A stretch of 58,534 nucleotides of DNA, filler included, from Dugesia japonica (GCA_001938525.1; 5 parts of 5 records of this genome joined end to end with filler, not necessarily neighbours in it), one strand, 5' to 3'. Shown: positions 592-57,522, counted from the whole stretch's first letter. A program made the numbers and translations. Notes: a model not told the origin generated them from the sequence alone.

Positions 592-1325
592 ATGAAATTT
601 AAACAAAGTCTTCCGTTTTTTAATATATTTCTAAAGTTTCCAAAAGAGTCGACAAGAAAATTGTTTAAGTTATTTCCATCATTTATTATAAATAATTTGT
701 TAGAGATTTCATTAAAATAAAGAAAAAGCTTCTATCAAAATAAAATGTGTTTGTAAAGAAATTCAGATTTTTGACAAAGGTCTTCTTCAGGAATGATGAC
801 TTTTTGATGGATTCAAAATGACAATGAATCTTTGCTACAAAATTATAAATCTTTTATCGAGATTTTATTGGTCTATTTAAATTATAATTTTATTTTTGAA
901 ATTAGATCTCAAAAATTCTTTTTTTTTGATAAAGAATTTTTGAGATTTGAGATTTAATTTAAGTGTCGAAAATTTGAATTTCTTTACAAATACATTTCAT
1001 TTTGATCGAAGCTTTTTCTTTATTTTAATGAAATCTCAAATGCAATCAATGGTGAAGTCCAACAATTATTCTCACAATAATTGTAATTATAAAACTTGTT
1101 AGAGATTATTATGAAGATCGTTCGTGGTAATTCAATTATCAGTTAAAAGAAAAAAAACTAGAATTACAGCGTTATAAAATATCATTGCTTTCACTCATAA
1201 ATACAAAGAATAGGAAATTGATGAGAAAAATTATATATAAACAAAATGGGGGTTTTCTTGCTCTATTATTTCCAATCGCATTAGCAGCACTAGGAATAGT
1301 AAATTTTACACAAACAATAGGTAAT
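592..1325 (+). pseudogene. Polinton/adintovirus small basic core-like protein with adenain-type xGG|F motif, split by a palindromic insertion
   Basis: ATG 592 MKFKQSLPFFNIFLKFPKESTRKLFKLFPSFIINNLLEI, then after removing insert 709-1107: IMKIVRGNSIIS*KKKLELQRYKISLLSLINTKNRKLMRKIIYKQNGGFLALLFPIALAALG (one stop, one frameshift); resembles the Polinton family pattern E..N.L.GN...K..L..YK..L...Q.GGFL..L. Confidence 0.7.
703..1095 (+). mobile_element. Palindromic hammerhead-bearing Penelope-pLTR-like insertion, copy 1
   Basis: Inverted arms (~703-775 vs ~963-1037), 3' tail ATCAATGGTGAAGTCCAACAATTATTCTCACAATAATTGTAATT, 12-bp TSD TTGTTAGAGATT at 697-708 and 1096-1107; degenerate CTGAAGA hammerhead core on the minus strand at ~760-800. 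Confidence 0.85.
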
Positions 1326-1374
1326 TTGGAATCATTGTCGCATATTTATCTCCAATTTATATCAAATTGTTGTA

Positions 1375-2389
1375 ATGGACAAAATCGAACTAATATGGAC
1401 AGATCCGAAAAATCCAGCAGGGTTTAAATGAGTGATATACTATAGAAAGCAACACACAATTTGAAAAACGAGACGAAAAAGTGGTTATTGAACCAGTTAG
1501 CGTATAATCTGAATAAGCCAATGTTAAAAGGATTCCCGTATCAAACCTTTGGTATTGATAATTTATGTCAAATGGATTTGATGAAAATGATACCTTATTT
1601 GAAAATTAGTTAAGGATATAAGTATGTTTTAACATTTGTTGATGTTTTTAATAGATTTGCAAGAGCTGTATCGATAAAATCAAAATCCGTTAATGATATG
1701 AAAGAAGCAGTCAAGACAATATTCAAAGAGGGGCTTCCAGATAATTTGCAAACTGGTTTGGAAAAAGAAATTTACAATTGCAAAGCCAATAATATTATTA
1801 ATCATCTCAAAATGAATCGTTTTTCTGTATTTTCCCAATAAAAAGTAGCATACTTTGAAAGATTTAATCGAACATTGAGAGATGCGATTAAAAGTACTTT
1901 TCATATACTGTTAATAAAACCTGGATACACGTATTACCGAAAGTAATTAACAGATATAATCAAACCAATTAAAAGGAATTAAATAAAGAGAGACCCGTTG
2001 ATGTATCATCTGAAACTTTGGCTTTTCAGACAACAACCAAAAACTATCAAGAAATCCATATATAAAGTTGGTGATCATGTTTGAATCCCAAAGATATCAG
2101 ATCGTCATTCATCAAGAATTTTGACAGTCATTGGAGTGATAAAAAATTTCACATATCAAAAATCAATACAACGCAGAACTCAATCATGTATGTGATTAAA
2201 GATCATGAAGAAAATATCATTGTTGTAAAGTTTTATGAACAAGAATTATAACTTATTTCACAACCAATAGTATTTAAAAGAGAAAAGATTATCAGATCAA
2301 AGGGAATTGGGAAATGTAAACAATTATATGTAAATTGGCATGGATATGAAAAACCAAGTTGGATATCAACATCACAAGTAATAAATTAA
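1375..2389 (+). pseudogene. Polinton c-integrase (rve) with C-terminal chromodomain, disrupted
   Basis: Manual translation: MDKIELIWTDPKNPAGF...KWLLNQLAYNLNKP...GIDNLCQMDL...GYKYVLTFVDVFNRFARAVSIKSK...PDNLQT...ERFNRTLR...YKVGDHV...KFYEQEL...EKIIRSKG...LYVNWHGYEKPSWI; several stops and frameshifts. Confidence 0.92.
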
Positions 2390-2405
2390 ACAAAGAAGCA
2401 GAAAA

Positions 2406-2630
2406 ATGAGCAAAACGAATAATTTTTGTATACTATTACCGAGTAATAGTTGTTCACTTATTCATCCTGATAATAGTGCCAGTAATTTTATTGTTGAGTT
2501 TCAAAATCCAATTTATATGGATAGTCAATGGGAAGTTGCCCTGATGAATTTCACCTTTGTATACTCGACTTTTCCATTTTATAGCAAATCCCATATTGAA
2601 TATGTAACAGGAAAAGATGAATGGAAGTAA
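2406..2630 (+). pseudogene. Polinton penton / minor capsid protein N-terminus (decayed frame probably continues to ~3400)
   Basis: FCILLPSNSCSLIHPDNSASNFIVEFQNPIYMDSQWEVALMNF matches the F.L.LPSNS....P.N..S.F...L..PI.L...WEV.L motif of Polinton pentons; begins 17 bp after the integrase stop. Confidence 0.85.
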
Positions 2631-4875: not shown

Positions 4876-5248
4876 CAGTGCCGGATTAGCTTTTTATTGT
4901 AGGCTTGGCTCAAAAAACGGAGTAAAACTAAAGTAGATACTCTAAGGCTCTGTAACCGATACATAAATAATATAATTTAATTATCCCTAAAAACAAATGG
5001 AAATATACGGCCTACTGTGTTAGTAAATCACACCGATTTTAGATAATAGTCCTGCAAATAGGCTATAATAAAAACAAATAACTAATGACGTTAAATTGTA
5101 CGTATTTAGCTCAATTCCGTAAACTTTCAGAAAAAACTAAGGGACATTGATCAACAATAAAATTAAACAAAATAATAATAACCATTAAACAAATAGTAGG
5201 CCAACAAAATAGTTCTACAAAAAAGTAGGCCTGGCACAAATAGCACTG
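4876..5248. mobile_element. Probable hAT-type MITE
   Basis: CAGTG...CACTG termini; 8-bp flanks ATTATTAC / ATTACTAG (2 mismatches). Confidence 0.4.
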
Positions 5249-6095
5249 ATTACTAGTGTTTAACACAACAATATTAAATGTTGCAAAGTCCAAATTAACT
5301 GCACCATGAATGAGAAAATAGTGATAAAAATAAAAAATAGTGTTGTTTCTTTTTTTATGCTGATGAAGAGTGTTCTCCTTTTTAAACTTATAAACAGAAT
5401 ATCGTTCTGTTGTTAGATTTGGAACATATCCGAAAATTTGTGCAGTTTTTGTTTATTTAACTATTATCTACAGTTTGACAATCTAAGTATAAAACCTTTT
5501 ATACAACTGTTATTACCGTAATATGCGACATGAAAGAGAAGATGACACGTCAAAAGGGCTCCCCCATAATATAGACGAAAGTTTTCGTATAAACATATAG
5601 ATGCTCTTTGCTTCGAGTTTTGTTTCATTTACCGATTTAATAGTTGCATTTGATATAGAAAATTGTCTTGTAAAAATATAAGCGATCTTCGACTATTAAG
5701 AAGATAACTACATAAAAATTATGTAATTATAAATATATATTGTATGTTATAAATGTAATATAATAAAGTATATATTATAAATGTATAATAATACGTTTAA
5801 TGTATCGTTGGCTGTTTTGATGGGGCACCGAGAGCGAAATATACAAAATTAAGTAAGTAATAATTATGAGGAAATAATTATTATTTAATAATTTTGAGCC
5901 AATAAAAATTCAGTTAATTCTGGATAAAGATTTTTAAAATACTATTCAATAATCATTTCTCTTATTAAATATAGTTTGTAGTAGTAAAATAAAAATGTCT
6001 AACAATATGAATTCTGATTTGCAAAATGAATTAACAAATGAAGATTTACCTAACAAAACAACTACACACATTTTATAATGATAACATCGCAGAAA

Positions 6096-6260
6096 TTCAT
6101 TTAATATAAAAGCTTAGATCAAAATTTCGGTTTTATTAATTGATATTTGATAACAATTAATAAAACCGAAATTTTGATCTAAGCTTTTATATTAAATGAA
6201 TTCCATAAAACGATCAATGGTTATGTCCAACAATTATTCTTGCAAGAATTGCAATTGTTA
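6096..6260 (+). mobile_element. Palindromic Penelope-pLTR-like insertion, copy 2 (truncated before the ribozyme)
   Basis: Near-perfect hairpin ~6094-6202, same ~60-bp tail, perfect 13-bp TSD AACATCGCAGAAA at 6083-6095 and 6261-6273. Confidence 0.88.
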
Positions 6261-8554
6261 AACATCGCAGAAAGTCTAGAAGTTGAACTTTTACATATAA
6301 AGGCCGTTTATAAAGTAAATATTGGTAACCACTTAATAACTCTAACATATTTAATAATTCAATAAATAAATTTCAATTAAAAGCTCTATTTCCAAATATA
6401 ATCAAGAAAGGATTAACTTATTTTGGAACAATTGGGATTATTTCTAACCGGACTCCACCAGAAATTGACCACACATATAAAATAATCCCCAAAATATTAT
6501 AAAACAAATTTTAACTAAAATAAATAATTTTCTTGGAGAAAATTTAACCACTAAACCATATCTTAACTTTTTATTAAAAAATTTCATTACAAAAAACTAT
6601 TAATTTTAATTTTTATAGACGAAGACAAAATTATACAAGAATTATCACTGTCTGTATTCCACAAATAAAAAATATTCACACTGTCGAATAGCTGTAAACA
6701 GTGAAGGTTATTTAATTGAGCATAAGGATAAGGATTAACTTTTATTTAATTATTATTAATCTTATCAAAATACACAGATTGATTAAGCCCTAGACATTTG
6801 TGTATGCAATGATNCATCATTGAATATAATAATGAGCATTCATGTATTTTGTTCTATTCCAGTATCTGTGAAGCAAGACGATATCTCAGTCATTTATCAA
6901 ACCTCAACATCACAAAACGATAAATTCATATCTAAAGATTTATTCACAATACAAAATTGAATTTTTCTTTTCTTCTCATAATTAAACTTAAAAACTAAAT
7001 ACTTGATGTTTGTGATATTTGCTTACATACAAACTCATTCAAAAATTATTTCATCTATTTATAAATTAAAAAAATATTCTTAATTACTATTTACATAAAT
7101 CTTTGCAAAATATATTCTAAGATTGACAGACTCAGGATTACTTTGTATGGAAGCCGAATTAGCAAAGAAATTCTAATATATCTGAAATAATTGATTATTT
7201 TTTTTTGAAACGAAGAAATCCCGAAAGGCTGAAAATAAATCAAATTGTTTTATTGTGAGTTTTTAATGTATCGCTCTTATTTTTATTTGTAAATTAAAAA
7301 TACAATAGTAAATATTTTTTAAAAAATTACATCTTTAATTAAAACATGCACAACCTCGGTAGTTGAGAATTTTCCAATTGAATATTTCACTAGTATTTTT
7401 TACTAGAATGGGTCAGTTTTATTCTATCGACTTACTTTGTTTGTTTAGCTGAATGGTAATGCATTTCAAACAAAATTATAAATAATCTCTAATAAAAATA
7501 AAAACTTTATTATAAATTGTCAGTGAATATAAGTTTCCAAAAAAAAAAAAACTTTGAAGAATCTGAAAAAACGAAAACATTTGTTTTACTGACGAAGGTA
7601 ATATAGTAAATATTTGAAAAAAGAAATTCATAATATTATTTTTTTTAGTTCGGCATTTAGTAATATTTTTGTAAAATATAATTTTAAATTTTTATTTCTT
7701 TTTTTATGTAAATTGATAGATTAAAATCTGTTTCAAACAGTTAACAAATAATTATCATTTACTACTGATAAAATTTTATTTCGGGTATAATTGATATCAT
7801 CTAAATTGATTAGAGAAAATATTGAATTTCCCAATTTCATCATCACTACTTACATTCAATGAATTTTTATTGGATACCGCATTTTTAAAAGAATCTGAAT
7901 CCAATAAAAAAAAGTTGGCATTGATTGGATAAATAAAAACTATTTGAATGATCTTTCTTTAATTAATTTGTAAATTTTTAACTTTTAAACTCAGTCAAAT
8001 TGATAATAAATGATTTNNNNNNNNNNNNNNNNNNNNNNNNNNNNNNNNNNNNNNNNNNNNNNNNNNNNNNNNNNNNNNNNNNNNNNNNNNNNNNNNNNNN
8101 NNNNNNNNNNNNNNNNNNNNNNNNNNNNNNNNNNNNNNNNNNNNNNNNNNNNNNNNNNNNNNNNNNNNNNNNNNNNNNNNNNNNNNNNNNNNNNNNNNNN
8201 NNNNNNNNNNNNNNNNNNNNNNNGGAAAATAATTTCTATTTTTATTAAAAACATAGATTTGATAATTTACACAGAAAGTTTATTATTATTCACACAATCC
8301 TTAAAAAATCAATATAGTATTGAAATTTTTCTGAAATACATTTGTTCAGGGTGCCTAAACTTATTTGTAAAATCAAATAACTTAAATACATAGAATGAAA
8401 AGTATGATTTGGGCTTGACACCAACTTTTTACTTATTAAATGTTATTATCAAATCAGTTAAGTTACAACTAAAATGGCATAAAACCACAAATAAGCAAAT
8501 TTTTTATGTGTTTCTGGAAAATTTTCTACTTTAAGATATTATAATATTATTACT

Positions 8555-8707
8555 ATAATTACAATTATTGCGAGAATAATTGTTGGATTTAACCATAGAT
8601 AGTATTTAAGATTTCATTTCGATCCAAATGTTGTTTTTTATAGTTTTTTAGTGGTTTGTTAGTATTTCGAATTTTCGTCTGTTGTCTTCTTCAGGAGTTT
8701 ACTTTTA
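8555..8707 (-). mobile_element. Same family, minus-strand copy with hammerhead core
   Basis: Reverse complement reads AAACTC-CTGAAGA-A-GAC-AACA-GAC-GAAA-AT-TC-GAAAT followed by the family tail (ATGGTTAAATCCAACAATTATTCTCGCAATAATTGTAATT). Confidence 0.75.
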
Positions 8708-8904
8708 AAAAGTTAAATCTTGAAGAAAATGTGTAAGTTTTATTTATACTTTAAGATTTTCATTTATGTTTTAATGTTTCTTCCTTAAGTATTAATGAAC
8801 TTTTTAATATAAATAAAATTAAAATTTTGTTATATTTTGTAAACAATTTAAAATTATCTAAAATTTGTAAGAAAATAACGTCCAATAAGTCATATCTAAA
8901 TTAT

Positions 8905-9460
8905 ATTTATTAATAGAAATAACATATATTACAATCGCCACACGCTTGCCAAAGGTAATTAGTGGATTTATCCCGGTATTTTAAAATTCTGGTATCCTGA
9001 ATTCAATAAATTGTCCAAAGGTTTTTTCAGAAGCACATTGGTTGTTAAACATTTCACCTGACGGGAAGAGACGAAGATGTTGGAAAAATGATAATCGATG
9101 AGTGAGAAGTTCGTCAAGAATCGTGAATGGTGCAAAATTTAGTAGTGCAACGCATTCTACTTTCTTTATCATCACTTAAGTAACCTAAGAACTAAGAGAA
9201 CTTATTCTGTTGACCAATGCCGGACGAAGTTTTTGCATATTTTTAATTCATTTTCTCGATTTCCTGGAAATAATTTTAATTTGTTATTGTATCTTCCCGA
9301 CTCAGAAAGTCATAATAAATAATAGCTCCAACATACCACCAAATGGTGAGAAGTCTACTTTTGGTGAAGTTCTGGTTTTGGAAAGTATTTTAGGATTTGG
9401 TCGCAAACAAGTAACTGTGCTGAAAGCTCACTATTGTGATATACTTTATAATGATATACT
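8905..9460 (-). pseudogene. Mariner (Hsmar1/cecropia-like) transposase C-terminal relic
   Basis: LLTIWW..GAIIYYDFL...TIT; LTHRLSFFQHLRLFPSGEMFNNQCASEKTFGQFIEFRIPEF..GINPL...WQ.C.DCN..YF, collinear with the Hsmar1 C-terminus. Confidence 0.8.
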
Positions 9461-14759: not shown

Positions 14760-15330
14760 GCAAGTATTCGATATAAACTGATGTTCATTATAAAATTGGA
14801 TTTTTTAATCTCACAAAAATAATTTATGACAAACAAGGTTGGACCTTTTATAATCTTTAAAATCATCGACGTAGTGGTGAAGTCATTGAAGTGTTCTTCA
14901 ATAGAGTAGAAAATTTAATCGACAAATTCATATCAACTAAAAAGCTAAAAAGAGAAAATCATGGTAAAATTGCTAATAATTTTCTCGAGTAGCAAGAAAT
15001 TATGCGAAAGTTAGAGAAAGTAGAAAATATAAAAGAAACTATCTTTAGAAAAGAAAATAGAAAGAGAACATATTAACGTAGTGCCGAGTTACTCGGGGGT
15101 AACACGTTGCGAATAAACATGGAAAAATTAACGAAAAGAACAGTACCAGAGTGTTGGACATGACACAGTTATGGCCACACAAAAAGAGAGTCTCCCAACA
15201 ATTCACAAATAGAATTCTGGACTTACTACAGGAAATGGCATAAAGTAGAAATAGTCCAGATAAGAAACTACCAAAATGTTTTCATTGTGATAACATTAAT
15301 GACATCAGAAGGTTGGGGATGTCAAAAAAT
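14760..15330 (+). pseudogene. Decayed LTR-retrotransposon gag with CCHC zinc-knuckle remnants
   Basis: ECWT*HSYGHTKRESP and LPKCFHCDNI..IRR remnants; many stops. Confidence 0.55.
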
Positions 15331-15589
15331 TTAACCAAGTTTTTAAAACAATCTCACAATATGAACCATGTGCAATAAATGATACATATGTGAAACATAA
15401 ATTCGAACAATAATTGAAGAACACCTAAAACAGAATGAAAGTGAAGTTTACAAACACTTTATGCACACACATAATATTCAAGCCGACCATAATAATATAA
15501 AATGCTAAATATTAAATTCATACTATATTTCCGCCCTCTTTAGAAAAAAGCACGATGAAATCTTATTCAAAGAGCTTAAATCTGAAGTC

Positions 15590-16480
15590 AAAATAATTTT
15601 TAATAATTTTATCCGATGAAAAAATCAGGAAAAAAACTTTAAATATAATTTTTAAAAACAATAGCAAATTTTTAATAAAAAATAAATAACACCATTTAAA
15701 ATACCACTCTATTGTAATATATTTCGACATATTATTCAGTGTATCTTAGTCAAACGAAAAATTCTCATATATTTTTTAATAATTTTATCTAATAAAAATC
15801 AGGATAAAAAATCTCAATCAATAAAATTTCTAATAATTTTACCTAATAAATTAGAATTTATTTAAAATAAAAGCTTCGATCCAAATTTGTTTTTTTTTTT
15901 GGTTTATTGAGATTAATTCGATATTTCGACTTTGTCTTCGACAGGAATTGACTTTTTACAGGAATAAAAATATCGAAATATTGAATTAATCTCAAAAAAC
16001 GTAAAAAACAAATTTTGATCGAAGCTTTTATTTTAAATGAATTCTGAAAAAAAAATGGTTACGTCCAACAATTAATTGCAATTGTAAAATAATAAATCTG
16101 GGGAAAATTGTAATATATTTTTTAATAATTTTCTCCAATAATAATAAGGATAAAAAATTTCACTATAATTTTTAATATTTTCCAATAAAAAAAATCAGGA
16201 TAAAAATTTCAATATAATTTTTAATAATTTAACCCAATAAATCAAGGAAAAACTGTCATATATTTTTTAATAATTTTATCCAATAAAAATCAGGATAAAA
16301 ATCTCCATCAATAAAATTTTTNNNNNNNNNNNNNNNNNAAAATATTGGGAAATAAAGTTTAATCAATATGATTTTTAATAATTTTTTTCAATAGAAAAAT
16401 CAGGATAAAAATCTCCATCAATAAAATTTTTAATAATTTTATCCAATCAAAATATTGGGAAATAAAGTTTAATCAATANN
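15590..16480. repeat. AT-rich tandem satellite, ~50-bp unit (TTTTAATAATTTTATCCAATAAAAATCAGGATAAAAA...)
   Basis: More than ten degenerate copies visible; interrupted by the insertion at 15853-16089 and by gaps. Confidence 0.8.
15853..16089 (+). mobile_element. Palindromic hammerhead-bearing insertion inside the satellite
   Basis: Inverted arms plus family tail; left arm (minus strand, 15915-15952) reads CAATTC-CTGTCGA-A-GAC-AAA-GTC-GAAA-TA-TC-GAATT; flanks share TAATAAAT. Confidence 0.82.
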
Positions 16481-17238
16481 NNNNNNNNNNNNNNNNNNNN
16501 NNNNNNNNNNNNNNNNNNNNNNNNNNNNNNNNNNNNNNNNNNNNNNNNNNNNNNNNNNNNNNNNNNNNNNNNNNNNNNNNNNNNNNNNNNNNNNNNNNNN
16601 NNNNNNNNNNNNNNNNNNNNNNNNNNNNNNNNNNNNNNNNNNNNNNNNNNNNNAAATTTTATTTACTTTCAAAAATATGAATAAATCCGAAAAACATCCC
16701 TGCAGAAGACAAAAATCGAAAATTGTGGATAAATTAAATAAAAGAAATTTTGATCTACATCTTAGTATTTTTTTCTTATTATTTCACAAAATAATCAATA
16801 ATAGTTAAGTTTATATTTAATAATTTATTATAAAGTGAAATTTACCTTTGTTTCTCGGAATTTTACGAGAGAATCTTTATGCTTTCTATCATCACTTTTT
16901 ATTTTACATCGCTGAGGTAATTTATCAGTTAACTGATTGTTCAAATGCCAATTTTTCCGTGAATTTTGAATAGCTTTTGCGCGTGGTATATCTACTTTGA
17001 TATCACTGCATTTCTGGCAACGATGCTTGAGGAAATTTTGCACAAGTCTCGGATTAACATACATACAGTCGAGATGTTGCTTTATTCTATTGGAAATTTA
17101 CATTATTACTGCGAAAATAAATGTAAAATATTGTAAAAAGTTTCATTTATACAGTTTTCCAGAGATTTATTGAAATTTTTAATTAACTGAAATGGCAATC
17201 TTGTTAACACTTCTAAGAAAACCTTTTTCACATACATC

Positions 17239-26880: not shown

Positions 26881-27481
26881 TATATATATAAATGATTATT
26901 CTTAATAGAGCTGAAATAAATGATTTCACAAATATGAATGAAATTTACTTAATTTTTTGCTGTCCGATATTAGGAAGTCCCACTTGAAAGATCCCATTTC
27001 GCAATGTACTATTATGAAGCTTATCTTTAGGAACATCATAAAACATATTAAAATGAGGAGATCTTTCAGTATCTGTTACCAATTCTATTTGCAATATTGC
27101 ATCTTCACATGTCGACGTTACCTAAAAAAANNNNNNNNNNNNNNNNNNNNNNNNNNNNNNNNNCGATATCAAATTCTTCTTTTTTCATTTTTTTCAATAT
27201 TTCGGCTTATTGAAATATATGAAAAAGAGAAGAACAACAATTCTGATCTTTTGCTTTTAAAACATTTTATTTTAAATAAAATTGTTTATTTAGTTATTTT
27301 TACAGATCAGTAGTTAAAATTTTTGTAAAAAAAGATTTATTTTAATGTTGGCAAACAATTAACTGTGAATATTTTCAATGAATTCAAAATTATAAAAAGT
27401 ATCCAATGAAAATTGAATTTAATCAAATGAATTTAATTTTAATTGTTATTTCAAAGTTTATAATCAAAATTTACTGAACTA

Positions 27482-27518
27482 TTGTTCCTGAAGAAGGCAA
27501 AGCCGAAATATTGAAAAA
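27482..27518 (+). ncRNA. Minimal type I hammerhead ribozyme motif (second subfamily)
   Basis: TTGTTC-CTGAAGA-A-GGC-AAA-GCC-GAAA-TA-TT-GAAAAA: intact core, 3-bp stem II, palindromic ATAT helix III; inverted partial copy at ~27170-27208 and related degenerate copy at ~55840-55945. Confidence 0.65.
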
Positions 27519-27635
27519 ATGAAAAAAAGAAGAACCATTCTGATCTTTTGNNNNNNNNNNNNNNNNNNNNNNNNNNNNNNNNNNNNNNNNNNNNNNNNNN
27601 NNNNNNNNNNNNNNNNNNNNNNNNNNNNNNNNNNN

Positions 27636-28330: not shown

Positions 28331-28354
28331 AGCGAATGAATTAAAAGTTTTAAA

Positions 28355-28516
28355 ATTCAATTCCTGAAGACAATAATCGAAAATTCGGAAAACCATCATA
28401 AAAGAAATAAAAAGAAACAAAACAACATATTCATCGAATCTTTTAATTTAATGAAATCTCAAATGCGATCAATAATCATGTCCAACAATTAATCTCATAA
28501 TAATTGTAATTGTAAA
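28355..28516 (+). mobile_element. Degenerate single-arm copy of the hammerhead/tail family
   Basis: CAATTC-CTGAAGA..AATC-GAAA-AT-TC followed by TTAATGAAATCTC and the family tail. Confidence 0.7.
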
Positions 28517-37710: not shown

Positions 37711-38713
37711 ATTTAATAAAATAAAAACTATAACATCACTAATTGTATTTTTAAAAAAATAATAAATTACTGTTTTAAATTGGTAATTGTTTCTTAAGAT
37801 TTTTTAAAAATCTATTTAAAGTCATTTGATTTTTAAATCAGATTTTAAAATAAATTTTTTATTTATTTATTAAATTTTTATTTTTTTAAAATTTATTTTA
37901 ACAGTCTTAATAAAAAATCAAATGACTAATAAGTATTTGTTTTAAATTCTGACATTAAGACTGTTAAAATAAAATTTCAATTTATTTATTAAAATTTAAT
38001 TTCAAAATTTAAAACAATTACTGATTTGTCATTTGACTTTTCTATTCAATTAAAATCCTTTTCAAAAAAGATTTCAAAAAACGATAACCAACCGCAAAAA
38101 AATCAACTCGCTTAAAACATACTCACAAGCACCATGTACTTGAACTTGACTAATATATTTTGTTAAAGATTTATTGAACTATTCATCCATTAACAAGCAA
38201 ACTTTTAGTCTATTCCGTGTAAATATTCATTTTTCCCGCGCCAACCACTCACTTACAAGCAAAATCTAGACAAATAACCAGAATTTATTTAAAATAAAAG
38301 CTTCGATAAAAAANNNNNNNNNNNNNNNNNNNNNNNNNNNNNNNNNNNNNNNNNNNNNNNNNNTTGTTTTAAATTCTGACATTAAGACTGTTAAAATAAA
38401 ATTTCAATTTATTTATTAAAATTTAATTTCAAAATTTCAAACAATTACTGATTCGTCATTTGACTTTTCTATTCAATGTAAATCTTTTTCAAAAAAGATT
38501 TCAAAAAAACGATAACCAGCCGCAAAAAAATCAACTCGCTTAAAACATACTCACAAGCACCATGTACTTGAACTTGACTAATAAATTTTATTTAAAGATT
38601 TATTGAACTATTCATCCATTAACAAGCAAACCTTTAGTCTATTCCGTGTAAATATTCATTTTTCCCGTGCCAACCACTCACTTACAAGCAAAATCTAGAC
38701 AAATAACCAGAAT

Positions 38714-38909
38714 TTATTTAAAATAAAAGCTTCGATAAAAAAATTCGATCAGAAAAAAGTCAATTCCTGACGAAGATTAAGTCGAAATATCGAATCAATC
38801 TCAAAAAAACCAAAAAAATATTTTTGATCGAANCTTTTATTTGAAATAAATTCTAAAAAACGATCAATGGTTACGAATAACAATTATTCTTGCAATAATT
38901 GCAATTGTA
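38714..38909 (+). mobile_element. Palindromic hammerhead-bearing insertion
   Basis: Short inverted left arm, full right arm and tail; 13-bp TSD AAATAACCAGAAT (38701-38713) / AAATAACTAGAAT (38910-38922). Confidence 0.85.
38761..38796 (+). ncRNA. Minimal type I hammerhead ribozyme motif, core intact
   Basis: CAATTC-CTGACGA-A-GAT-TAA-GTC-GAAA-TA-TC|GAATCA: stem I ATTC/GAAT, CUGANGA, 3-bp stem II, GAAA, palindromic AUAU, AUC cleavage triplet. Confidence 0.72.
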
Positions 38910-40342
38910 AAATAACTAGAATGCCGATATCTAAAATTAATTGTAAGTTCCGGTTAAACAAATCACCTCTGTTATATCCAAACTCATGAACAAATTTAGG
39001 ATAAACCAAAGTAGTTAGATAAGTCAGCATGACATCACTAATCTTATTGGTCAAAACTAACCTCACCTACCTTGCCAATCGATATATTGATTACCGAACT
39101 TATTAATTTCGGATATGATGGATTGAATTTTATTTTTTGATCGGATNNNNNNNNNNNNNNNNNNNNNNNNNNNNNNNNNNNNNNNNNNNNNNNNNNTTTT
39201 GATCGAAGCTTTTATTTGAAATAAATTCTAAAAAACGATCAATGGTTACGAATAACAATTATTCTTGCAAATATTGCAATTGTAAAATAACTAGAATGTC
39301 GATATCTAAAATTAATTGTAAGTTCCGGTTAAACAAATCACCTCTGTTATATCCAAACTCAAATTTAGGATAAACCAAATTAGTTAGATAAGTCAGCATG
39401 ACATCACTAATCTTATTGGTCACTAACCTCGCCTACCCTGCCAATCGATATATTGATTACCGAACTTATTAATTTCGGATATGATGGATTGAATTTTATT
39501 TTTTGATCGGATCAAATTTTCGGATCAGATATATATCGAATTTTTTTAAATTTATGGGAGAATTTTGTGGAAATTTTAAATTTTGTTTTAATTTTAAAAT
39601 GTTTTATCTAAAAAGCAAGTTCACATTTATGTGCAACTTTTGGCTGCTTTTGTGTTAAGATAGTGTAGGTGAAAATTTGAGTGCACTTTTTTGGTGCTAG
39701 TGTGTACATATATTGAAAAACGAAATTTGTAAAATATTGTGTGTTAGAGTGTGTAGATCATTGATTGTTGATTTTGAGACTGAATTTCATTGATCCCTAG
39801 AAATTGCTAAAGGTAAATATGGGCTGAAATGAGCCTGAGAGTTACAGACTTAGGTCAGCATCACTCCACAGTTATCAGTTATTGAGCATTTGGGTTAAAA
39901 AGAGCGTGGTATTCTGGATTTGTGTTGGATTTGAAGAAATTTGGGCTTCTTAAAGAGTAAGAGTCGGAGTAGGTGAAATTGGTGTGTTTGGGTTGGTTTT
40001 TGTCTAGAAATTTTATAATGGTTGATTGTGAAGGGTTGGTAAGTAGTGTGTGTTGATAAAAAAAATTTTGAAAATTATTTTTATCGATTAATTTTTTAGG
40101 GTAGAGGGAAGAATAGAGAATTTGAAAAAGTAAGGCTTATATTTTTTCAGTGTGTGTGTGAATTTTAGAAAATCATGGTTTTTAAAAGACGGAAGAGTAT
40201 TTTTAGATTTTTGTTCGAGCAGTTTAGAGACCTTTGTTTCGGGCTGTCTAGAGATTATTTGTTCAGGCTGTCCAAAGATGTCTTTTGCAAAAGTGAGATG
40301 TATCTATATTTTAGTGGTTCGGGCAGTTAGGTCCTTAGAATA

Positions 40343-40740: not shown

Positions 40741-40771
40741 TTCAGTTGCCTTCAAATTATTTATTCGACCG

Positions 40772-43984: not shown

Positions 43985-46401
43985 GATCAGATGCCAATTC
44001 TCGAATCTAGTAATAAATGTTCGCTTAGATTGAACTTTGTACCATATACATCTTGAAGTTGATTCATAATTTCCTTCTTACCAGTTCCCTTGATGAGAAA
44101 AAATCGAGTCACACTACAAAATTCAAAAATATCGAACATTTTTTTGAATTATTCTTATCTAGTGCAACAAAAATTAGCATATTAAAACAAATCGTACATT
44201 TCATACCTTTATATGCTTGTTATTTTACGTGCAAAATTTTATTTAAATATATTCAATATTTCTGAGTGTCTAAGAACATTTTAGCCTTACCACCTATATT
44301 TAGTAATTCATATACGTGTCGATAATAATAATTAGTATTATTTAATAAGGTAAGCAATAAACAATTAATTTATTTGACAAAATCAAATATATAAATATCA
44401 ATTCTCACATCTTTGTCAACAATTAAATATTCGCTTCAATTACTTGTTGTATATAATCAATGATTTACCTCTAAATAACAGAGTTAGGAGACCAGCTAAA
44501 ATTAGAAATTTATTATTATAATTGAATTTGTAAACAGTTCAAATAGATATGATGATAACTGTTTGTTTTGTGTAATATGTTTAGATTCAATACTATTAAA
44601 TTTAACAATAGATTTTAAATTTTGAATTTATGGTTTTCGTTAATGATTGTTGAATTTGAAATATTAATGTTAAAAACATATGGTAATNNNNNNNNNNNNN
44701 NNNNNNNNNNNNNNNNNNNNNNNNNNNNNNNTTAATTAATTAANNNNNNNNNNNNNNNNNNNNNNNNNNNNNNNNNNNNNNNNNNNNAAGCACAACATTT
44801 GGATTGTGGATTCTTTAGTTGAAATTAACGATTTGAGGAGTCCACCATTACTGTTTCTTCTGGAGTCGGAAATCGTTACACTATGAATTAATGAAAAAAA
44901 ATCACCTTTGTGAAAGTAGAATTTTTTCCGATCAACTCTATATTTGTCTGGTTAAAAGTGTTGTCTTTTGTGAAATTTTCATCGGTATTTATACCGGTTT
45001 TTCTACACCCCCGTTTATTTTATTGGTGGTTATAAATTCTCGACACTTTTATTGGCCAGATGATCACATGCTTTCTTTTCATTGGCGGTTATTTTTGGAC
45101 TTCGAAATTATTGGTCAACCTTCAAACCCTTATAACTTTTTTTCTTTCCTTGCAATGATTTTCTAAGTTTGATTTTGAATTCACCGAATTTTTCTCGACC
45201 AGAATGTTCTAGATTGATAGTTTTGGCACCACTAGAAGTCCTACTTTTCTTAGTTTTTCGTAGAAAATTTAATTTTCTATTTAAAATAAATCATTTTAAT
45301 TCTTATGATATATTTTATTTAAATAAAATAAATTATTTATTTTATTTTCGTTGTGCATCTTAACTAAGTGCTCATTTCTTTGTTCTTTCTGATTTATTTA
45401 ATTTAGTTTCATTGTTTTTCTTCTGTTAATGAATTAATTTAGTTAATTCTTTCTTTCTTCCAGTATAATTCGATGTGATTTTCTTGATATTGCCTACTGA
45501 ATTGATGGTTAATCATTAGTTTTTTTGTCGTCCTGTCACAGTTTCTATTACTTTTTCTTCTTTGGTTTACTTATTTTTGAATTGTTTCTTGCAGTGATTT
45601 CGGTGATTTCGTTGGTTTTGATTACCAATCTTGATTTTCCTTTTCATTATTTCCCTCTTTTCAATTATTGAATCAGTTCGTTGGCCATCGTTTATTATTT
45701 TCGTTGTTCGGATTACCGCTTCTTGACTTCGTTGGCTTTTTTATTTCCTCGTTATCTCCTGTTGAAGTTCTAGTTTTTTCATCCTTCGCACGAGCTTATA
45801 AAAAAAATATTTATAAAATTTAATTTTGTACTTAAAAATGTAGAATTACATCTAAATTGTTAACAACAAATCGTATATTACCCACCTCTTTCACTAAGAA
45901 TAAATTTAAATGGGAAATAAAAATTATGAAGCAAACAAATTATTGAATAGTATAATTTTTAATTAATGAAACGTTAATATTTGTATTAATTCTAAAACCA
46001 GCAATTTTTAAACGCATGTGATTCATTTCGATTTTACAATCATAGTGAAACTTTTATTTCAAATTGGACTAAAAAGAAATGTCTAATTTTGATCAAAATC
46101 TGTGATATTTGTAAAATAAATATTGAAATAATTTTGAAAAATTTAAGTGCGGATAAATTTAAAGTAGATTTACTAGGCGGTATTCTCTTTGTGATAAAAA
46201 AAATCTTTTGATGTATTTTGTGATAAAATAATTCATGATTTTTTAGAATATTTTTTTAATTTACAAATTATTTTCTTTTCTTTCTGTTTTAAATTTTTCC
46301 TAATATAATAATTTTATCAATAAATAACCATTAAATTATGAATTCAATTAATTTTTAATTGATTTAATACTTATAATATTTNNNNNCAATTTATTTTTAT
46401 T

Positions 46402-46668
46402 AATTCATTTAATATAAAAGGTTTGATCAACGTTTTGGTTTTTATTATTGATATTGGATAACAATTCGGTATTTCCACCTTGTCTTTGTCAGGAATTGAC
46501 ATATTACAAAGTCAATTCCTGACGAAGACAAGGTGGAAATACCGAATTGTTATCAAATATCAATAAAAAAACCAAAATTTTGATCAAAGCTTTTCTATTA
46601 AATGAATTCTGTAAAACAATCAATGATTAAGTCCAACAATTATTCTCCCAATAATTGCAATTGTTAAA
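46402..46668 (+). mobile_element. Best-preserved palindromic hammerhead insertion (two ~99-bp arms, 10-bp spacer, 60-bp tail)
   Basis: Arms 46402-46500 and 46511-46608; hammerhead 46513-46549 CAATTC-CTGACGA-A-GAC-AAG-GTG-GAAA-TA-CC-GAATTG; AT-rich flanking duplication CAATT(T)ATTTTTATTAA. Confidence 0.9.
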
Positions 46669-47820
46669 CAATTATTTTTATTAAATTATATTTATTATTA
46701 ATTTCCCATGAATTACAACAATGATTAAGATAGGTCTCCAAACAGAAATATGACAGTCTTTATCAAATTAGATTTAAGTTTATATAACTACTAAAATCTT
46801 ATTTGGACGTAGCCTAAAGTAGGTCACACAGAATTGTTGCATATTAAATGTAACCATTTTAAATCTATTTGCAAAGATTTCACTATTACTAATCACTCAC
46901 GTTAAACTTTTGTTTAAATTTTTATTAAAATAAAAAATTAATTTCCGCAATTCAGTGGAAAATGTTGATTAAAATCAGTTTCATCCAAAGAAAATTTAGT
47001 TTTCATCAATTATTCACAATATTCCCGATGCATAAATAGATGACTCTTAAAATTCATTTTTTCTTCAGTGTTTCCCTCGACAGGAACTATTGATAATTTT
47101 TTTCGTGTATATTTTATTTTTTTATATGTTGGGATTCAGCAAGTACACAGTACATACACAAGCATCAAACATACAATATTACATACACACATTTACATAC
47201 TCAAACAATCTAGCATACGAAAAAATTCCAAAACCTCAACATCAAATATTCCATTTAACACGCGATATCCAAAGAGTTAAACAATCGATATTCAGCAAGC
47301 CAATTAAATATGATTGCATGTAATGGAAAATAGTATAAATACCGAACAAATTTATTAAATTGTTAGACAAATTTATTTCTTGGGACACTGAGGTCTTACA
47401 AAAGTATGTACCCATTAAATTAAAATCAGTTAACAAGGTCTTAAGTATAAGTGTTATTATCTGTATACATCAAAATTTAATTTTTTTAAAGGTTGCGTAT
47501 TATTTATTATATAGGATAACCTACACATTGCAGTATTTAAAAATTTGCTTAATTATATTGAATTATACATAATTGTAATAATATACAAATATAATTTTTC
47601 ATTTTCATATAATATCAATGAACACCAATTAATATGTCATATTAATTTTCGACAGACACTTTAATTATGTTTAGTTATCTTTAGTATTGATATAAATCCG
47701 CAAACAATCGAACCACAAAATATCTTTTGTTGAGTAAAGTACCCAACATATATTTCTCAATACCGCTGATTGTGTACCTATATTATTATTTCTATCCACA
47801 ACATTTATTTAAATTCAAAA

Positions 47821-53608: not shown

Positions 53609-54934
53609 GTTTAAATAATGGCTTTAAAAATATTTTAATTATCACTAATAAAATACAGGCATTCCTTGTATAACACAGTACTCTTACAACGCGATTTAAA
53701 AATTTTGAAAATTCTAAGTTAATTTTATTTTTTTTAATCAAGTTTATTTTGTAATTTTGATTTGAAATATACATGTGAAATTTAGTATTTTATTAAAGAA
53801 AAAAATAATTGTAATATAACACTTTTACATTATAGGAAAGCTGAGTCTTACGTAACACGAAATTTTTCTGGAACGTAACCTCCTCATGTTACGAAAAATA
53901 CCAGAGTACGTATTAAAAACATTGATTAAAAATATTTATTAAACATGAAAATTTCAAACAATTCCTTAAAGTTTTAAAAAGTTTAACTCAAAACAATTAT
54001 TTAAGAATTTACGAATCGATTCTTATATTTAATGAAATTCGGATTCAAATGATAAAAATTAAATTAATCTTACAAATGAAAATACACCCTAAACGTTTTT
54101 TTTCAAATCGTTTAATTGATGATAATATTATAAACGTTAATTGTTTTATTGCTAGGTAGAACCTAATAATAAATCATAACATTTCAGTCCAATCAAATTG
54201 GAAGTATAACTTTATGGGATGTAAAATAAATGGGTTATCAGTTATAACATATGGCACAAATAAACTTACAATATAAAGAAAGAAATCAATTGTTTGTTAA
54301 TAATAATAACCTCAAAATAATAAGTTTTAAATTTTAATCTAGAAACAAAACGAACTTCTTGATCAACTAAATATTTAATATTATTTTGCAAGTGGTCTTA
54401 AATATTCAAATCTTTCTATTGAAATTTAATAGAAAAAACTACTTTATCGTAGGAAATATTTGTAATTTTAATTTTATATTATTATGCCATCGACGACTTG
54501 TCCGATCAGAAAATTACATATTTTATGATATAAACTATGTAATCAATTAGGTTATTATTTTAATATTTCCATTAGTTAACCATTGAGCTGTATTTATCAA
54601 ATAAAATTGTTTTCATAATTCATAGATCAAAACTTTCTATTATCTTTTGTTAGGCTGTACAATATTTCAATGTAGTCAGTCTTAATCACCAACAATTGAA
54701 CAAATTTAAATTAATACCATCCAAAGCTAAATATTTTCAGACTGGTATATTTAAGTCCATNGAATATTTTTAATAAATTAGAATTTTCTATTTAGATTAA
54801 TGATGAAATTTATATACTCAGTATTTTAGTATAAAAAAAATGTTACTCGGTTTTAAAATTTTACGTGAAGAAATGCAGTTAACATGTCGAAACCTGTTTG
54901 TAATTTATAAATACTGATTTACAAGTTTTGTTTT

Positions 54935-55030
54935 ATATAATTACAATTATTGTGAAAATAATTGTTGGATTTAACAATTGATCGCATTTCAGATTTCATT
55001 AAAATACAGAAAAAGATTTGATCAAAAATT
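54935..55030 (-). mobile_element. Truncated minus-strand copy of the tail family
   Basis: Reverse complement of TTTAATGAAATCTGAAATGCGATCAATTGTTAAATCCAACAATTATTTTCACAATAATTGTAATT. Confidence 0.7.
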
Positions 55031-57316
55031 CTGATACTGGTTGTGAGGAAATTGTATAATTAAAAATATTTTATATTGTTTTAATTGTTATATTTATGCA
55101 AGTTGTATTTTATTCAAAGTTTTACGTTTTTCAATAAGTTCTGATCTATAAGTAATTTTTATTCTTTTGAAATTTGTATAGTGATTTGCAATTTTTATGA
55201 ACAATTTGTATTTGATAAATTGTAATTTGTAAAGTTAAAAGTTATTATTGTTATCTAATAAAGTTTTTGAAAATAATTCATTATCATATTTAATATGAAT
55301 ATAGATAATTCTGAGGTATGTATGCCTAACACCTATAAACTGATCTTCTTATTTATTTTTTATATATATGCCATAGTTCTTCGAGGTTTTGAATTTTAAT
55401 TAATATTTTAACTCTAATAGAATCTTTGAAAACTTACTATGAGAAGGAAATACGATAAAGTGGCTCGGTAAAAGAAATTAAATAGAAATAATCATTTCAG
55501 TTTGAAAACCGTTTTTTTTAAAGATTCAATATTATAAATAATTAAATTAATGAAGCAACGGTATGATAAAGATTTCTGAATATTCATTTATTTGAAATTA
55601 AATTCTCCCAAGTAATTAAATTTAAGAAATTGCATTGATAATTATTTTCAATGATGTCGAAACAAAAGAATAATCTAAACCGATTAGTGTCGATTTCTCT
55701 GAGAATTCTGATAAAAAATATCGGCTTCATTAAGTTTTGTTTTACATATTTTTTATTCTTTAAATATTTCTGGCGATTAAATTTGTTTTAATATTGAAAT
55801 ATAAATATAATAAATAATGAATCATTTTTTAAAATTTTTTTTTCCTGAAAAAGGTATAGCGGAAATACTTAAAAAAAAAGAACAACAACAATTTTGATCT
55901 TTTGCTTTTAAAACAATTTATTTTAAATAAAATTGTTTATTCACTTATTATTAAATAAGTATTAAAATGTTATGTATTATATAATAGGTTTTAAATTACG
56001 TATGAAATTATCATAATGAAGACCAAGAACAAACTTGACAATTGCTATTAGAAATAATTTCAAGTTTGTTAGATAATTTAGGTTTTAATATTTTGAATAT
56101 ACTACTCAATTTTTGTATTAATGGTCCTATTAGTANNNNNNNNNNNNNNNNNNNNNNNNNNNTTTTTTTATCTAATATCTTCATATCATTAAAGAGCATG
56201 TAGGATATCACAATTTCGAACACTTTTTCTTTTCTTTTTGTATTTTAACAACAATAATGATCCCTTAATAAAATCTAAAAATAATCTCAATTTAAAAGTC
56301 AAATGTCAATTGTTAATTGCGATTCTACTTACAAATGTTTAGTAATTTACAAAATAAATCATTTTAATAAAAAGAACTAAATCGATACGATTTTTAGAAA
56401 ACCATTTTTATATCCTATTTTTTCCTACTTAATTAATTTCTATTCNNNNNNNNNNNNNNNNNNNNNNNNNNNNNNNNNNNNNNNNNNNNNNNNNNNNNNN
56501 NNNNNNNNNNNNNNNNNNNNNNNNNNNNNNNNNNNNNNNNNNNNNNNNNNNNNNNNNNNNNNNNNNNNNNNNNNNNNNNNNNNNNNNNNNNNNNNNNNNN
56601 NNNNNNNNNNNNNNNNNNNNNNNNNNNNNNNNNNNNNNNNNNNNNNNNNNNNNNNNNNNNNNNNNNNNNNNNNTAGTTAAACTGAGCTTGAGAATTGAAA
56701 TGTGGTAAACTGTTTGAACTCTAATTAAGATAAATAGATATTTATATAATTTAATCAATCTTTATTTCTATTTACTTTTATTATTATTTGATTTAAATTG
56801 GTTTAATTATCATGATTAAGAAATTCATTTTAAAACTTTTAAAAACTTGTTTCATTATATCTTAATTGTTTGTAAATTTTATGTCAAATTTGACGTTCTG
56901 AATTATTTTTATTAATTAAATTCACAGACAGTTATCTAAAAAAATTAATAAATACTCTGTATTATATAATCTGAATATTATAAATATTAATGTGTCACTT
57001 ATATGAATTTATGTGATAATTTAAATTTTTATTTAGAATTAAATGATAAATTCACAATAAGATAAAAATAATATATGAAAAAAAATTAGATCAAAATTAC
57101 CGTAAATATTTCAAGAATCTACAATTATTACAATGCATACTGTTGACTCTTTGAAGTTCTTAATACCTAAGTTTAACAACTATAAGGTAAAAATTTTAGA
57201 TAATTAAATTTTAAATCTAGGTTTCGTTGAGGTGTTGAAATAAACTGAAGAGTCTTGAATTTTAATTAACGTATACATTTTTAGTAATGTGGAAGAAATC
57301 TTTTTGATGAATCAAA

Positions 57317-57460
57317 AGTTCATTTAAAATAAATATAGAATTATTATCAAAAAACCAAAAAAAAAACAAATTTTGATTGAAGTCTTTACTTTTAATGAAT
57401 TCTGAAAAACTATAAATAGTTGCGTCCAATAATTACTCTCGCAAGAATTGCAATTTTAAA
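57317..57460 (+). mobile_element. Short palindromic copy of the tail family
   Basis: Short inverted stub TTCATTTAAAATAAA, right arm, tail GTCCAATAATTACTCTCGCAAGAATTGCAATT; AATCAAAA on both flanks. Confidence 0.7.
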
Positions 57461-57522
57461 TCAATCAAAATGTAGTTTTGTTTTATAATATAAACTTTGA
57501 AACGCCATTTAAATATATATTT

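What the first reader, a model, noticed from the sequence alone, without database searches (positions are those of the whole stretch)
697..57470. Dispersed family of palindromic, tailed insertions carrying minimal hammerhead ribozymes (Penelope-pLTR / retrozyme-like)
Seen: about ten copies in all five unlinked scaffolds (703, 6096, 8555, 15853, ~16700, 28355, 38714, 46402, 54935, 57317) share the architecture [variable-length inverted arm]-[direct arm]-[fixed ~60-bp tail ending AATTGCAATTGTAAA], with 12-13-bp TSDs where resolvable. The arm contains CAATTC-CTGANGA-A-GAC-AAA-GTC-GAAA-TA-TC-GAATT. Established: CUGANGA/GAAA/NUH is the hammerhead core, and Penelope-like elements carry minimal hammerheads in their pLTRs and often insert as an inverted truncated pLTR with a tail extension. 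Inference: a very high-copy non-coding retroelement family mobilised by a Penelope RT/GIY-YIG protein; it would be mis-annotated as a MITE.
Basis: partly seen in the sequence, partly recalled or inferred. Interest (0 to 1): 0.75.

Follow-up and report, generated by a model that had tools for sequence, protein, structure and literature searches.

The report
Penelope terminal-repeat insertions with minimal hammerheads
The scattered palindromic repeats are real, very abundant ~160-base insertions carrying a minimal hammerhead-ribozyme motif, most likely the terminal repeats of Penelope-like jumping genes copied around the genome by an enzyme encoded elsewhere; this kind is already known, and self-cutting is untested.

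Summary
The family is real: 12 loci on all five scaffolds. The unit is about 160 bp: a minimal type-I hammerhead motif, an A-rich linker and a fixed ~58-bp tail. Seven loci also have a tail-less inverted arm; four have clear 12-13-bp TSDs. The hammerhead matches the published Penelope (PLE) min-HHR consensus and shows compensatory changes, but only 2 of 9 aligned arms are intact. One DNA run laid 11,310 contigs on one copy (roughly 10^5 copies). Variation falls mostly at positions a hammerhead tolerates, and there is a sharp 5' edge just upstream of helix I. RNA reads are sparse read-through with no start at the predicted cut (after 38791, not 38790). No tandem copies were found, so it is not a retrozyme; asymmetric ends exclude a MITE. 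A PLE enzyme gene was not demonstrated: two GIY-YIG-like remnants are by eye only and all searches were negative. Verdict: new member of a known kind, with a longer tail than the published 30-40 bp and a probably non-autonomous short subfamily. The scan noted similar families in other genomes.

The parts
697..1107 (+). Copy 700: TSD 697-708 / 1096-1107; inverted arm ~703-800 (HH-like core, C3 at 790 on -, G12 and 16.1 altered); ~160-bp unshared spacer with its own hairpin; direct arm ~962-1035 starting inside stem II; tail 1036-1095
6083..6273 (+). Copy 6096: 13-bp TSD 6083-6095 / 6261-6273; inverted arm 6094-6158 whose inner end lies 1 nt 3' of the predicted cut; direct arm ~6154-6203 joined through 5-nt microhomology; tail 6204-6262; no HH core
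8550..8707 (-). Copy 8555: direct-only unit, core bases intact (C3 at 8694) but stem II mismatched and helix I weak; full tail; no TSD found
15851..16091 (+). Copy 15853: full inverted arm 15851-15958 (C3 at 15944 on -, A6>U); short templated duplication at the centre; direct arm ~15968-16044; tail with 14-nt deletion; weak 8-bp TSD
16688..16800 (+). Decayed HH-bearing arm with part of the linker, no tail
27478..27548 (+).
28352..28519 (+). Copy 28355: direct-only unit, 3-nt deletion in the core, full tail, abutting a Gypsy-like remnant; no TSD found
38701..38922 (+). Copy 38714: 13-bp TSD (1 mismatch) 38701-38713 / 38910-38922; short inverted arm 38708-38741; 8-nt templated duplication; direct arm 38753-38853; tail 38854-38912
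38761..38797 (+). Intact minimal type-I hammerhead: helix I 38763-66/38792-95, C3 at 38767, stem II 38775-77/38781-83, GAAA 38784-87, palindromic 15.2/16.2 at 38788-89, predicted cut after 38791
38279..38313 (-). Duplicate of the 38714 inverted-arm start next to an N gap (probable assembly duplication)
39197..39292 (+). Duplicate of the 38714 linker and tail next to an N gap (probable assembly duplication)
46391..46684 (+). Copy 46402: 13-bp TSD 46391-46403 / 46672-46684; full inverted arm ~46401-46501 and full direct arm ~46508-46609 around a 10-nt centre; both arms carry the same two core-damaging changes; tail 46610-46668
54933..55050 (-). Copy 54935: direct arm with the HH core deleted, plus full tail
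55100..55390 (-). Degenerate reading frame resembling a PLE GIY-YIG C-terminus, 5' of the 54935 direct arm (by eye only; no search confirmed it)
   Evidence: seen; negative
55835..55935 (+). Decayed HH-bearing, tail-less arm in inverse orientation to copy 54935; probably its inverted 5' arm, making a ~1.0-kb insertion
   Evidence: E 0.0026; E 3e-4; reversed-window control best E 0.4
57307..57470 (+). Copy 57317: weak 11-bp TSD; ~15-nt inverted arm; direct arm starting ~5 nt 5' of the predicted cut; full tail
14800..15610 (+). Decayed frames resembling the C-terminal half of a PLE ORF (GIY-YIG-like at 15329-15607), candidate partner or ancestor (by eye only)
   Evidence: seen; negative

Best explanation
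These are dispersed ~160-bp insertions (minimal hammerhead motif, A-rich linker, ~58-bp tail, often with a tail-less inverted arm and a 12-13-bp target duplication) that are most likely terminal repeats of a Penelope-like retroelement, probably copied in trans from a short RNA by a Penelope RT/GIY-YIG protein. Inferred mechanism, following the in vitro work on the anole element PAc: the protein nicks both target strands 12-13 nt apart. One nick primes reverse transcription at the tail's 3' end and gives the direct arm. The other primes about 58 nt inside, helped by 2-6 nt of microhomology, and gives the inverted arm. The two cDNAs stop at variable points, no further than about 10-14 nt 5' of the hammerhead core in the young subfamily, and are joined head-to-head by microhomology or short templated pieces. 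The hammerhead is predicted to fold only as a dimer or with protein help. It appears not to be needed for insertion, and uncleaved RNA is the likely template. Shown: anatomy, TSDs, motif, covariation, abundance, fixed ends. Inferred: enzyme, RNA template, priming order, catalysis. Within this reading I put about 60% on a short non-autonomous template for the young subfamily and about 40% on truncated ends of full-length elements.
For: The motif fits the metazoan PLE min-HHR consensus (PMC4209133, Fig. S3): CUGANGA, one bulged base, G-C closed stem II, GAAA, a 2-nt palindrome, UH. In 9 aligned arms, 78.9% of cells pair (shuffle mean 70.9, 0 of 500 as high; slid controls at most 43%) and 5 of 10 pairs change on both sides. 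Positions 15.2/16.2 are palindromic in 9 of 9 (UA x5, AU x4). Core positions deviate in 9 of 99 cells against 23 of 66 at free positions. In DNA run X1 the best-supported differences within 38767-38791 are at N7 (12.7%), stem II third pair (96.6%, to a canonical pair), loop II (90%, 45%), the CpG G12 (5.2%), A15.1 (0.1%) and H17 (2.1%). Depth peaks over the hammerhead and the tail and collapses between them. Loose ends with unrelated flanks pile up before 38753-55 (168, 152, 117 contigs; agreement 0.43-0.48; X11 92 and 86 reads) and after 38912 (143 contigs). Inverted arms start within -1 to +2 nt of one motif, and the TSD end overlaps the arm start by 6, 2, 6, 2 nt (sum 16; null mean 1.7; 0 of 20,000). 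Arms of one insertion share private variants (87-98% identity). An inverted truncated pLTR, one-sided tail and TSD are PLE hallmarks (PMC8557442 passages; PMC3846280). PAc extends both strands from two RNA sites that bound the tail and inserts without hammerhead cleavage (PMC11167929).
Against: No PLE protein was demonstrated: Pfam, NCBIfam, PHROGs, PDB, phmmer over 1.84 billion proteins, three word-index searches (one in the wrong frame), ESM Atlas and fold searches gave nothing GIY-YIG-related. Rfam hammerhead models do not hit. The hammerhead fold is not the predicted minimum-energy fold at 38761-38797 (-0.5 against -2.4 kcal/mol). The tail (~58 nt) is longer than the published 30-40 bp. 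The covariation set is small, related and partly chosen on the core, and two rows come from one insertion. One search hid 134 variant rows and 343 loose-end rows. The 5' pile-up sits at an A6 run, so its exact position is soft. TSD/arm overlap is measured on 4 copies. PAc was reported to start at a site not homologous to the cut DNA, unlike the microhomology seen here.
Confidence: 0.82

Rival explanations
1. All copies are simply 5'-truncated 3' ends of one or more autonomous PLE families, and there is no separate non-autonomous element; the 5' edge is a reverse-transcription pause at helix I or the A run.
For: Copy 54935 encloses ~790 bp with a GIY-YIG-like frame between an inverted arm and the direct arm. 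Copy 8555 has an ORF-like upstream by eye. PLEs are typically heavily 5'-truncated (PMC8557442; PMC4209133). Scan notes e1-7808612 and e1-7858586 reached this verdict for similar families in other genomes (not tested here).
Against: No two arms share sequence upstream of the A-run, other than their own inverted arms (DNA and protein tests). In the young subfamily 4 of 10 arm ends stop at the same edge and none goes past it. Raw RNA reads and contigs ending there have heterogeneous upstream sequence.
Confidence: 0.35
2. A non-LTR retrozyme: the unit is transcribed as tandem RNA, self-cleaved and circularised, then reverse-transcribed.
For: Type-I hammerhead, low GC and long TSDs (PMC7229834 passages); retrozymes derive from pLTRs (bioRxiv 10.64898/2026.07.22.740005).
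Against: No tandem arrays of the unit among 58 TRF rows. One head-to-tail joint at depth 9.7 among those shown. The motif is minimal. No read starts or ends pile up in three RNA runs (38, 1396 and 118 reads), and 93-97% of those reads run on into unlike sequence. Copies are not permuted at the cut site.
Confidence: 0.06
3. A MITE or foldback-type DNA transposon whose hammerhead-like letters are coincidental.
For: Long palindromes, TSDs, high copy number, no coding capacity.
Against: The ends are asymmetric (a ~58-nt tail on one side only). Arm length ranges from ~15 to ~105 nt, and some copies have no inverted arm. The motif and its compensatory changes exceed chance.
Confidence: 0.04
4. PLE-type insertion, but the inverted arm arises by fold-back of a single cDNA (or later arm-to-arm conversion) rather than by a second RNA-templated priming event.
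For: Arms share private variants; copy 6096 is centred on a 5-bp stem; copy 46402 is symmetric.
Against: The inverted arm's outer end is fixed and overlaps the TSD end, which fold-back alone does not explain. In copies 15853, 38714 and 700 the arms are strongly unequal at the centre.
Confidence: 0.25

Closest known systems
Minimal hammerheads (min-HHR) in pLTRs of metazoan PLEs (Cervera and De la Pena 2014, PMC4209133)
   Same: Same consensus, including the bulge after A9, G10.1-C11.1 and the palindromic 15.2/16.2; mostly single dispersed motifs; pairs on opposite strands 100-700 bp apart were described there too.
   Different: Stem II is only 3 bp (as in their C. briggsae example; most are longer). 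The rough copy number here is about 10^5, against 2,000-9,000 motifs reported for S. mansoni, coelacanth and Xenopus tropicalis. No row in their Fig. S3 matches this sequence.
Inverted pLTR + tail + TSD insertions of EN+ PLEs (Adineta vaga Pen families, PMC3846280; Fig. 2 of Craig et al. 2021, PMC8557442)
   Same: Inverted truncated arm at the 5' end, tail on one end only, TSD, solo pLTRs, captured spacers.
   Different: Tail ~58 nt against 31 or 30-40 bp; TSD 12-13 bp against 8-10 bp; most copies hold no ORF; far higher copy number.
PAc (Poseidon, Anolis carolinensis) in vitro system (Frangieh et al. 2024, PMC11167929)
   Same: Hammerhead upstream of a tail bounded by two fixed sites; a stem-loop in the tail; no RNA reads starting at the cut; hammerhead dispensable for insertion.
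   Different: In PAc the ORF starts at stem II, while no ORF start is evident here. The target microhomology at the inner site seen here was not reported there.
Short non-autonomous PLEs (Chlamydomonas MRC1 and relatives, PMC8557442; short non-autonomous Penelope of Heliconius, PMC6685494)
   Same: Short, high-copy, non-coding PLE derivatives.
   Different: The Chlamydomonas ones often form head-to-tail tandems and Chlamys mostly lack hammerheads; the butterfly passages give no anatomy to compare.
Non-LTR retrozymes (PMC7229834; bioRxiv 10.64898/2026.07.22.740005)
   Same: pLTR-derived, non-coding, type-I hammerhead.
   Different: They are tandem arrays, mostly with canonical hammerheads and circular RNAs; this family is dispersed, head-to-head and minimal.

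Membership tests
EN+ Penelope-like element (pLTR-derived) | Inverted 5'-truncated pLTR adjacent to the insertion | tested here: met
   7 of 12 loci (700, 6096, 15853, 38714, 46402, 57317, 54935)
EN+ Penelope-like element (pLTR-derived) | Fixed tail extension on one end (published 30-40 bp) | tested here: met
   Fixed and one-sided, but ~58 nt (55 nt plus 3-4 A in 9 of 10)
EN+ Penelope-like element (pLTR-derived) | Target-site duplication | tested here: met
   12-13 bp in 4 of 11 loci above the null maximum, 2 borderline, 5 none
EN+ Penelope-like element (pLTR-derived) | Hammerhead motif in the pLTR | tested here: met
EN+ Penelope-like element (pLTR-derived) | Linked or homologous RT + GIY-YIG ORF | tested here: inconclusive
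   By-eye remnants at 55100-55390 and 14800-15610; all searches negative on degenerate frames; no genome held
EN+ Penelope-like element (pLTR-derived) | Partial-tandem direct pLTRs flanking an ORF | not testable with these tools
   Scaffolds are 9-15 kb with gaps; no genome held
Minimal type-I hammerhead (min-HHR) | CUGANGA / GAAA / UH core with helices I and II | tested here: met
   Intact in 2 of 9 arms, family majority intact
Minimal type-I hammerhead (min-HHR) | Palindromic 15.2-16.2 and bulge between 9 and 10.1 | tested here: met
   Palindromic in 9 of 9; bulged A in 9 of 9
Minimal type-I hammerhead (min-HHR) | Self-cleavage (dimer or protein-assisted) | not testable with these tools
   No read pile-up at the site in three RNA runs, which is also the case for PAc
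Non-LTR retrozyme | Head-to-tail tandem arrays with a hammerhead in each unit | tested here: not met
   None in the window; one low-depth head-to-tail contig among the joints shown
Non-LTR retrozyme | Abundant monomeric linear and circular RNA | tested here: inconclusive
   Reads are sparse and mostly read-through, but oligo-dT/cDNA libraries can lose such RNA
MITE / DNA transposon | Symmetric fixed TIRs at both termini | tested here: not met
   One-sided tail, variable or absent arm

The most novel reading that the evidence does not exclude
The young subfamily is a self-standing, SINE-like 'solo pLTR' of about 160 nt, with about 10^5 copies and its own fixed 5' start at the edge of hammerhead helix I. 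In it the hammerhead is kept as a protein-binding fold, not a cutter, and insertion runs by two-site priming with target microhomology across an unusually long ~58-nt tail. That would be a large natural record of how PLE inverted ends and tails form.
Probability: 0.3. Interest if true: 0.6.

Novelty: new member of a known kind. Interest (0 to 1): 0.36.

Why it matters
The kind of element is known, so a PLE specialist would not be surprised by its existence. It matters in two smaller ways. First, repeat pipelines would call these palindromes MITEs or miRNA hairpins (Rfam's best matches were miRNA models below threshold), although they may make up a percent-level share of this genome. Second, how PLEs make inverted ends and tails, and what their hammerheads do, is still described as undefined (PMC8557442). 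Tens of thousands of short, TSD-bounded junctions in one genome would allow direct statistical tests of priming sites, microhomology, and whether cleaved RNA is ever the template.

Tried and rejected
Own genome: none held. Relatives in collections: exact motif scans of viral, metagenome and prokaryote contigs found 0. A relaxed pattern found 0 viral and 2 metagenome loci; L001 and L002 are chance matches inside bacterial coding sequence with no helix I. Partner protein: no GIY-YIG or RT hit by Pfam (10 frames), NCBIfam, PHROGs (only an unnamed family at E 0.0097 and weaker), PDB sequence search (41, 82), phmmer over representatives (32), word-index searches (one search used the wrong frame and is void), ESM Atlas (61, 62; best scores 0.79-0.80, below the lead level, no GIY-YIG). 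AlphaFold models were low-confidence (pLDDT 57 and 44); only the second was fold-searched, with nothing significant (105, 106). The GIY-YIG regex (3 hits in the window, 0 in the reversed control) was written after seeing two of the hits and is circular. A whole-window Pfam scan was never completed (searches did not run). Shared sequence upstream of the hammerhead between copies: none above null (8694 vs 55046: 76 of 300 controls scored as high). A distant 13-bp TSD for copy 54935 at 55744 is treated as chance: null 17 of 837 per 900 bp, a wider window was searched, a second equally long match exists, and the site lies inside the putative inverted arm boundary. One search used mis-set helix I columns and is void; one search replaces it. 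The tail hairpin is the minimum-energy fold in 6 of 8 tails, but z-scores run only from -0.02 to -2.8, so it is not established. An excess of A>G/T>C in RNA over DNA was significant in 1 of 3 runs (p 0.016, 0.088, 0.43) and is not claimed. No RNA holder was listed in the run index. The host species was not determined. Literature searches found no description of this family, but most subscription papers and Repbase/Dfam were not searchable.


Full report
Setting. The window is five scaffolds of an AT-rich (26% GC) eukaryote, joined by N-spacer blocks at 9466, 18426, 29674 and 44688. No whole genome is held, and the host was not identified. Public runs labelled as the same organism exist.

Observation. 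Blastn, a covariance model built from 9 arms and an nhmmer profile of window copies give members at all ten listed positions, plus arms at 27478 and 55835 and two probable assembly duplicates beside N gaps (38279, 39197). Counting 55835 with copy 54935 and one of the duplicated stretches separately gives 12 loci, about one per 4.7 kb of non-N sequence. The unit, in hammerhead sense, is a short A run, the hammerhead motif, an A-rich linker, a conserved motif ending the arm, and a tail of 55 nt plus 3-4 A in 9 of 10 copies. Seven loci have an inverted arm that starts at the arm-end motif and lacks the tail; arm length runs from about 15 to about 105 nt. Two loci are direct-only and two are partial. 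TSDs of 12-13 bp exceed the null maximum at 4 of 11 loci, are borderline at 2 and absent at 5. By eye there are two subfamilies: A (6096, 15853, 38714, 46402, 57317) and an older-looking B (700, 8555, 28355, 54935).

The hammerhead. Rfam has no hammerhead match. The motif nevertheless fits the metazoan PLE min-HHR consensus in Fig. S3 of PMC4209133. The pattern occurs 5 times against 0.01 expected. A descriptor finds 2 intact motifs (27488, 38767), a third with one core change, and none in 12 shuffles. On 9 aligned arms, 78.9% of cells pair, 5 of 10 pairs change on both sides, and 15.2/16.2 stay palindromic in 9 of 9; the rows are related and partly chosen on the core, so this is support, not proof. 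Core positions deviate in 9 of 99 cells against 23 of 66 at free positions. The monomer fold is marginal (-0.5 kcal/mol against a -2.4 alternative), and in two-armed copies the arms pair with each other (-134 kcal/mol for 46402), which would hide the ribozyme. The predicted cut is after 38791.

Family-wide data. The one read lay (38690-38960; 4 of the 24 listed runs) placed 11,310 contigs of DNA-like run X1. Summed depth is 630,000-760,000 over the hammerhead, 770,000-830,000 over the tail's 3' half, 4,000-31,000 in the linker, and 6.5-10.9 in the flanks. The ratio is 70,000-117,000; the tool warns that this is no copy number, so I take only the order of magnitude, which agrees with the window's density. 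Among the 40 variant rows shown (134 hidden), those within the core lie at N7, stem II, loop II, H17, the CpG G12 (5.2%) and A15.1 (0.1% in DNA). Loose ends with unrelated sequence pile up before 38753-55 and after 38912, in contigs and in raw reads. Three RNA runs gave 38, 1396 and 118 reads in both orientations; 93-97% run on into unlike sequence and no start or end pile-up was found. This is read-through, with no sign of cleavage, as also reported for PAc (PMC11167929). One head-to-tail joint at depth 9.7 was among those shown.

Junctions. In the four copies with clear TSDs, the inverted arm's outer end lies within -1 to +2 nt of the arm-end motif and overlaps the TSD's 3' end by 6, 2, 6 and 2 nt (null mean sum 1.7; 0 of 20,000). 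Centres show a 5-nt microhomology (6096), short templated duplications (15853, 38714), a 10-nt spacer (46402) or about 160 unshared bases (700). Arms of one insertion share private variants (87-98% identity); both arms of 46402 carry the same two core-damaging changes, so either a dead hammerhead was retrotransposed or the arms were homogenised later. In subfamily A, 4 of 10 arm ends stop 9-14 nt 5' of C3 and none goes further. One arm (6096) ends 1 nt from the predicted cut, which is not more than chance among 10 ends.

Partner ORF. Copy 54935 has a decayed, tail-less inverted arm about 790 bp upstream, and the enclosed sequence has a frame that resembles a GIY-YIG C-terminus. A second PLE-ORF-like remnant lies at 14800-15610. 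Both resemblances rest on recalled family motifs; every search was negative, and the remnants are not significantly similar to each other. The link to an RT/GIY-YIG protein is therefore inferred.

Mechanism. PAc protein nicks and extends both strands, starts reverse transcription at two RNA sites that bound the tail, and inserts equally with a dead hammerhead (PMC11167929). Applied here, two nicks 12-13 nt apart prime at the tail end and about 58 nt inside, and the two cDNAs are joined head-to-head. This explains the fixed outer ends, the variable centre, the one-sided tail and the TSD. The hard 5' edge suggests a short template for subfamily A (about 60%), while some B copies look like ordinary truncated elements. 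Fold-back of one cDNA remains a rival for the inverted arm.

Comparison and novelty. It works like, and by four of six tested or testable features is, a PLE pLTR derivative; the ORF feature is inconclusive. It fails the retrozyme test (no arrays) and the MITE test (asymmetric ends). Differences from published cases are a ~58-nt tail against 30-40 bp, 12-13-bp TSDs against 8-10 bp in A. vaga, and copy number. Five further literature searches found no description of this family; Repbase and Dfam could not be checked. The scan holds no note on this sequence or genome but has similar verdicts for other genomes.

Papers seen. PMC4209133: main text parts 1-2 of 4 and supplement parts 1-2 of 3. PMC11167929: parts 1-2 of 4; supplement search with no hits, and its supplementary figures, which bear on tail length and start sites, were not visible. 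PMC3846280: parts 1-3 of 5. bioRxiv 10.64898/2026.07.22.740005: parts 1-3 of 5, no supplements. PMC8557442, PMC7229834, PMC8969392, PMC6685494, PMC3681739: passages only. Hammerhead numbering beyond these papers, GIY-YIG motif shapes, the initiator motif and MITE features are recalled.

Verdict. New member of a known kind; interest 0.36.

Noticed in passing
window 14800-15610 (+), 15588-16478: Decayed frames resembling a PLE ORF C-terminal half, running into a ~50-bp minisatellite that holds copy 15853 and is followed, after a gap, by the arm at 16690; possibly one old PLE with an expanded 3' region.
   Followed up: partly
window ~1400-2300 (+): Degenerate integrase-like frames of the Polinton/Ginger type (by eye, from the translations printed).
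   Followed up: no
window 27800-28340, 31400-36400, 39900-43200: Broken Gypsy-like LTR retrotransposon remnants (zinc knuckle, protease, RT, RNase H, integrase by eye); copy 28355 abuts one.
   Followed up: no
window 37937-38313 / 38364-38742 and 38822-38986 / 39197-39361: 97-98% identical duplications on either side of 50-N gaps, probably scaffolding artefacts; they inflate the copy count by one.
   Followed up: partly
window 902-952: A separate hairpin inside the spacer of copy 700, with short pieces that resemble the arm-end motif; the spacer may be a patchwork of templated insertions or captured host DNA.
   Followed up: no
window 38798: A>G read in 6 of 33 reads of RNA run X14 against 0.2% of DNA depth; long arm-arm hairpins could be editing or siRNA substrates, but the overall excess was significant in only 1 of 3 runs and no matched DNA exists.
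   Followed up: partly
window 38759-38766: The fixed 5' edge coincides with an AG dinucleotide and an initiator-like TCAATTC (recalled motif); in D. virilis Penelope an intron ends at the 5' end of helix I (PMC4209133).
   Followed up: no
window 13396-14118 (-): A 241-aa open frame with no Pfam or NCBIfam match.
   Followed up: partly
window 28750-28821 (+): Weak, possibly decayed extra family fragment (nhmmer E 0.19, CM E 0.16).
   Followed up: no
window 57474-57486 and 54920-54933: An exact 13-bp match between the flank of copy 54935 and the sequence just after copy 57317's TSD; probably chance in A-rich DNA.
   Followed up: partly
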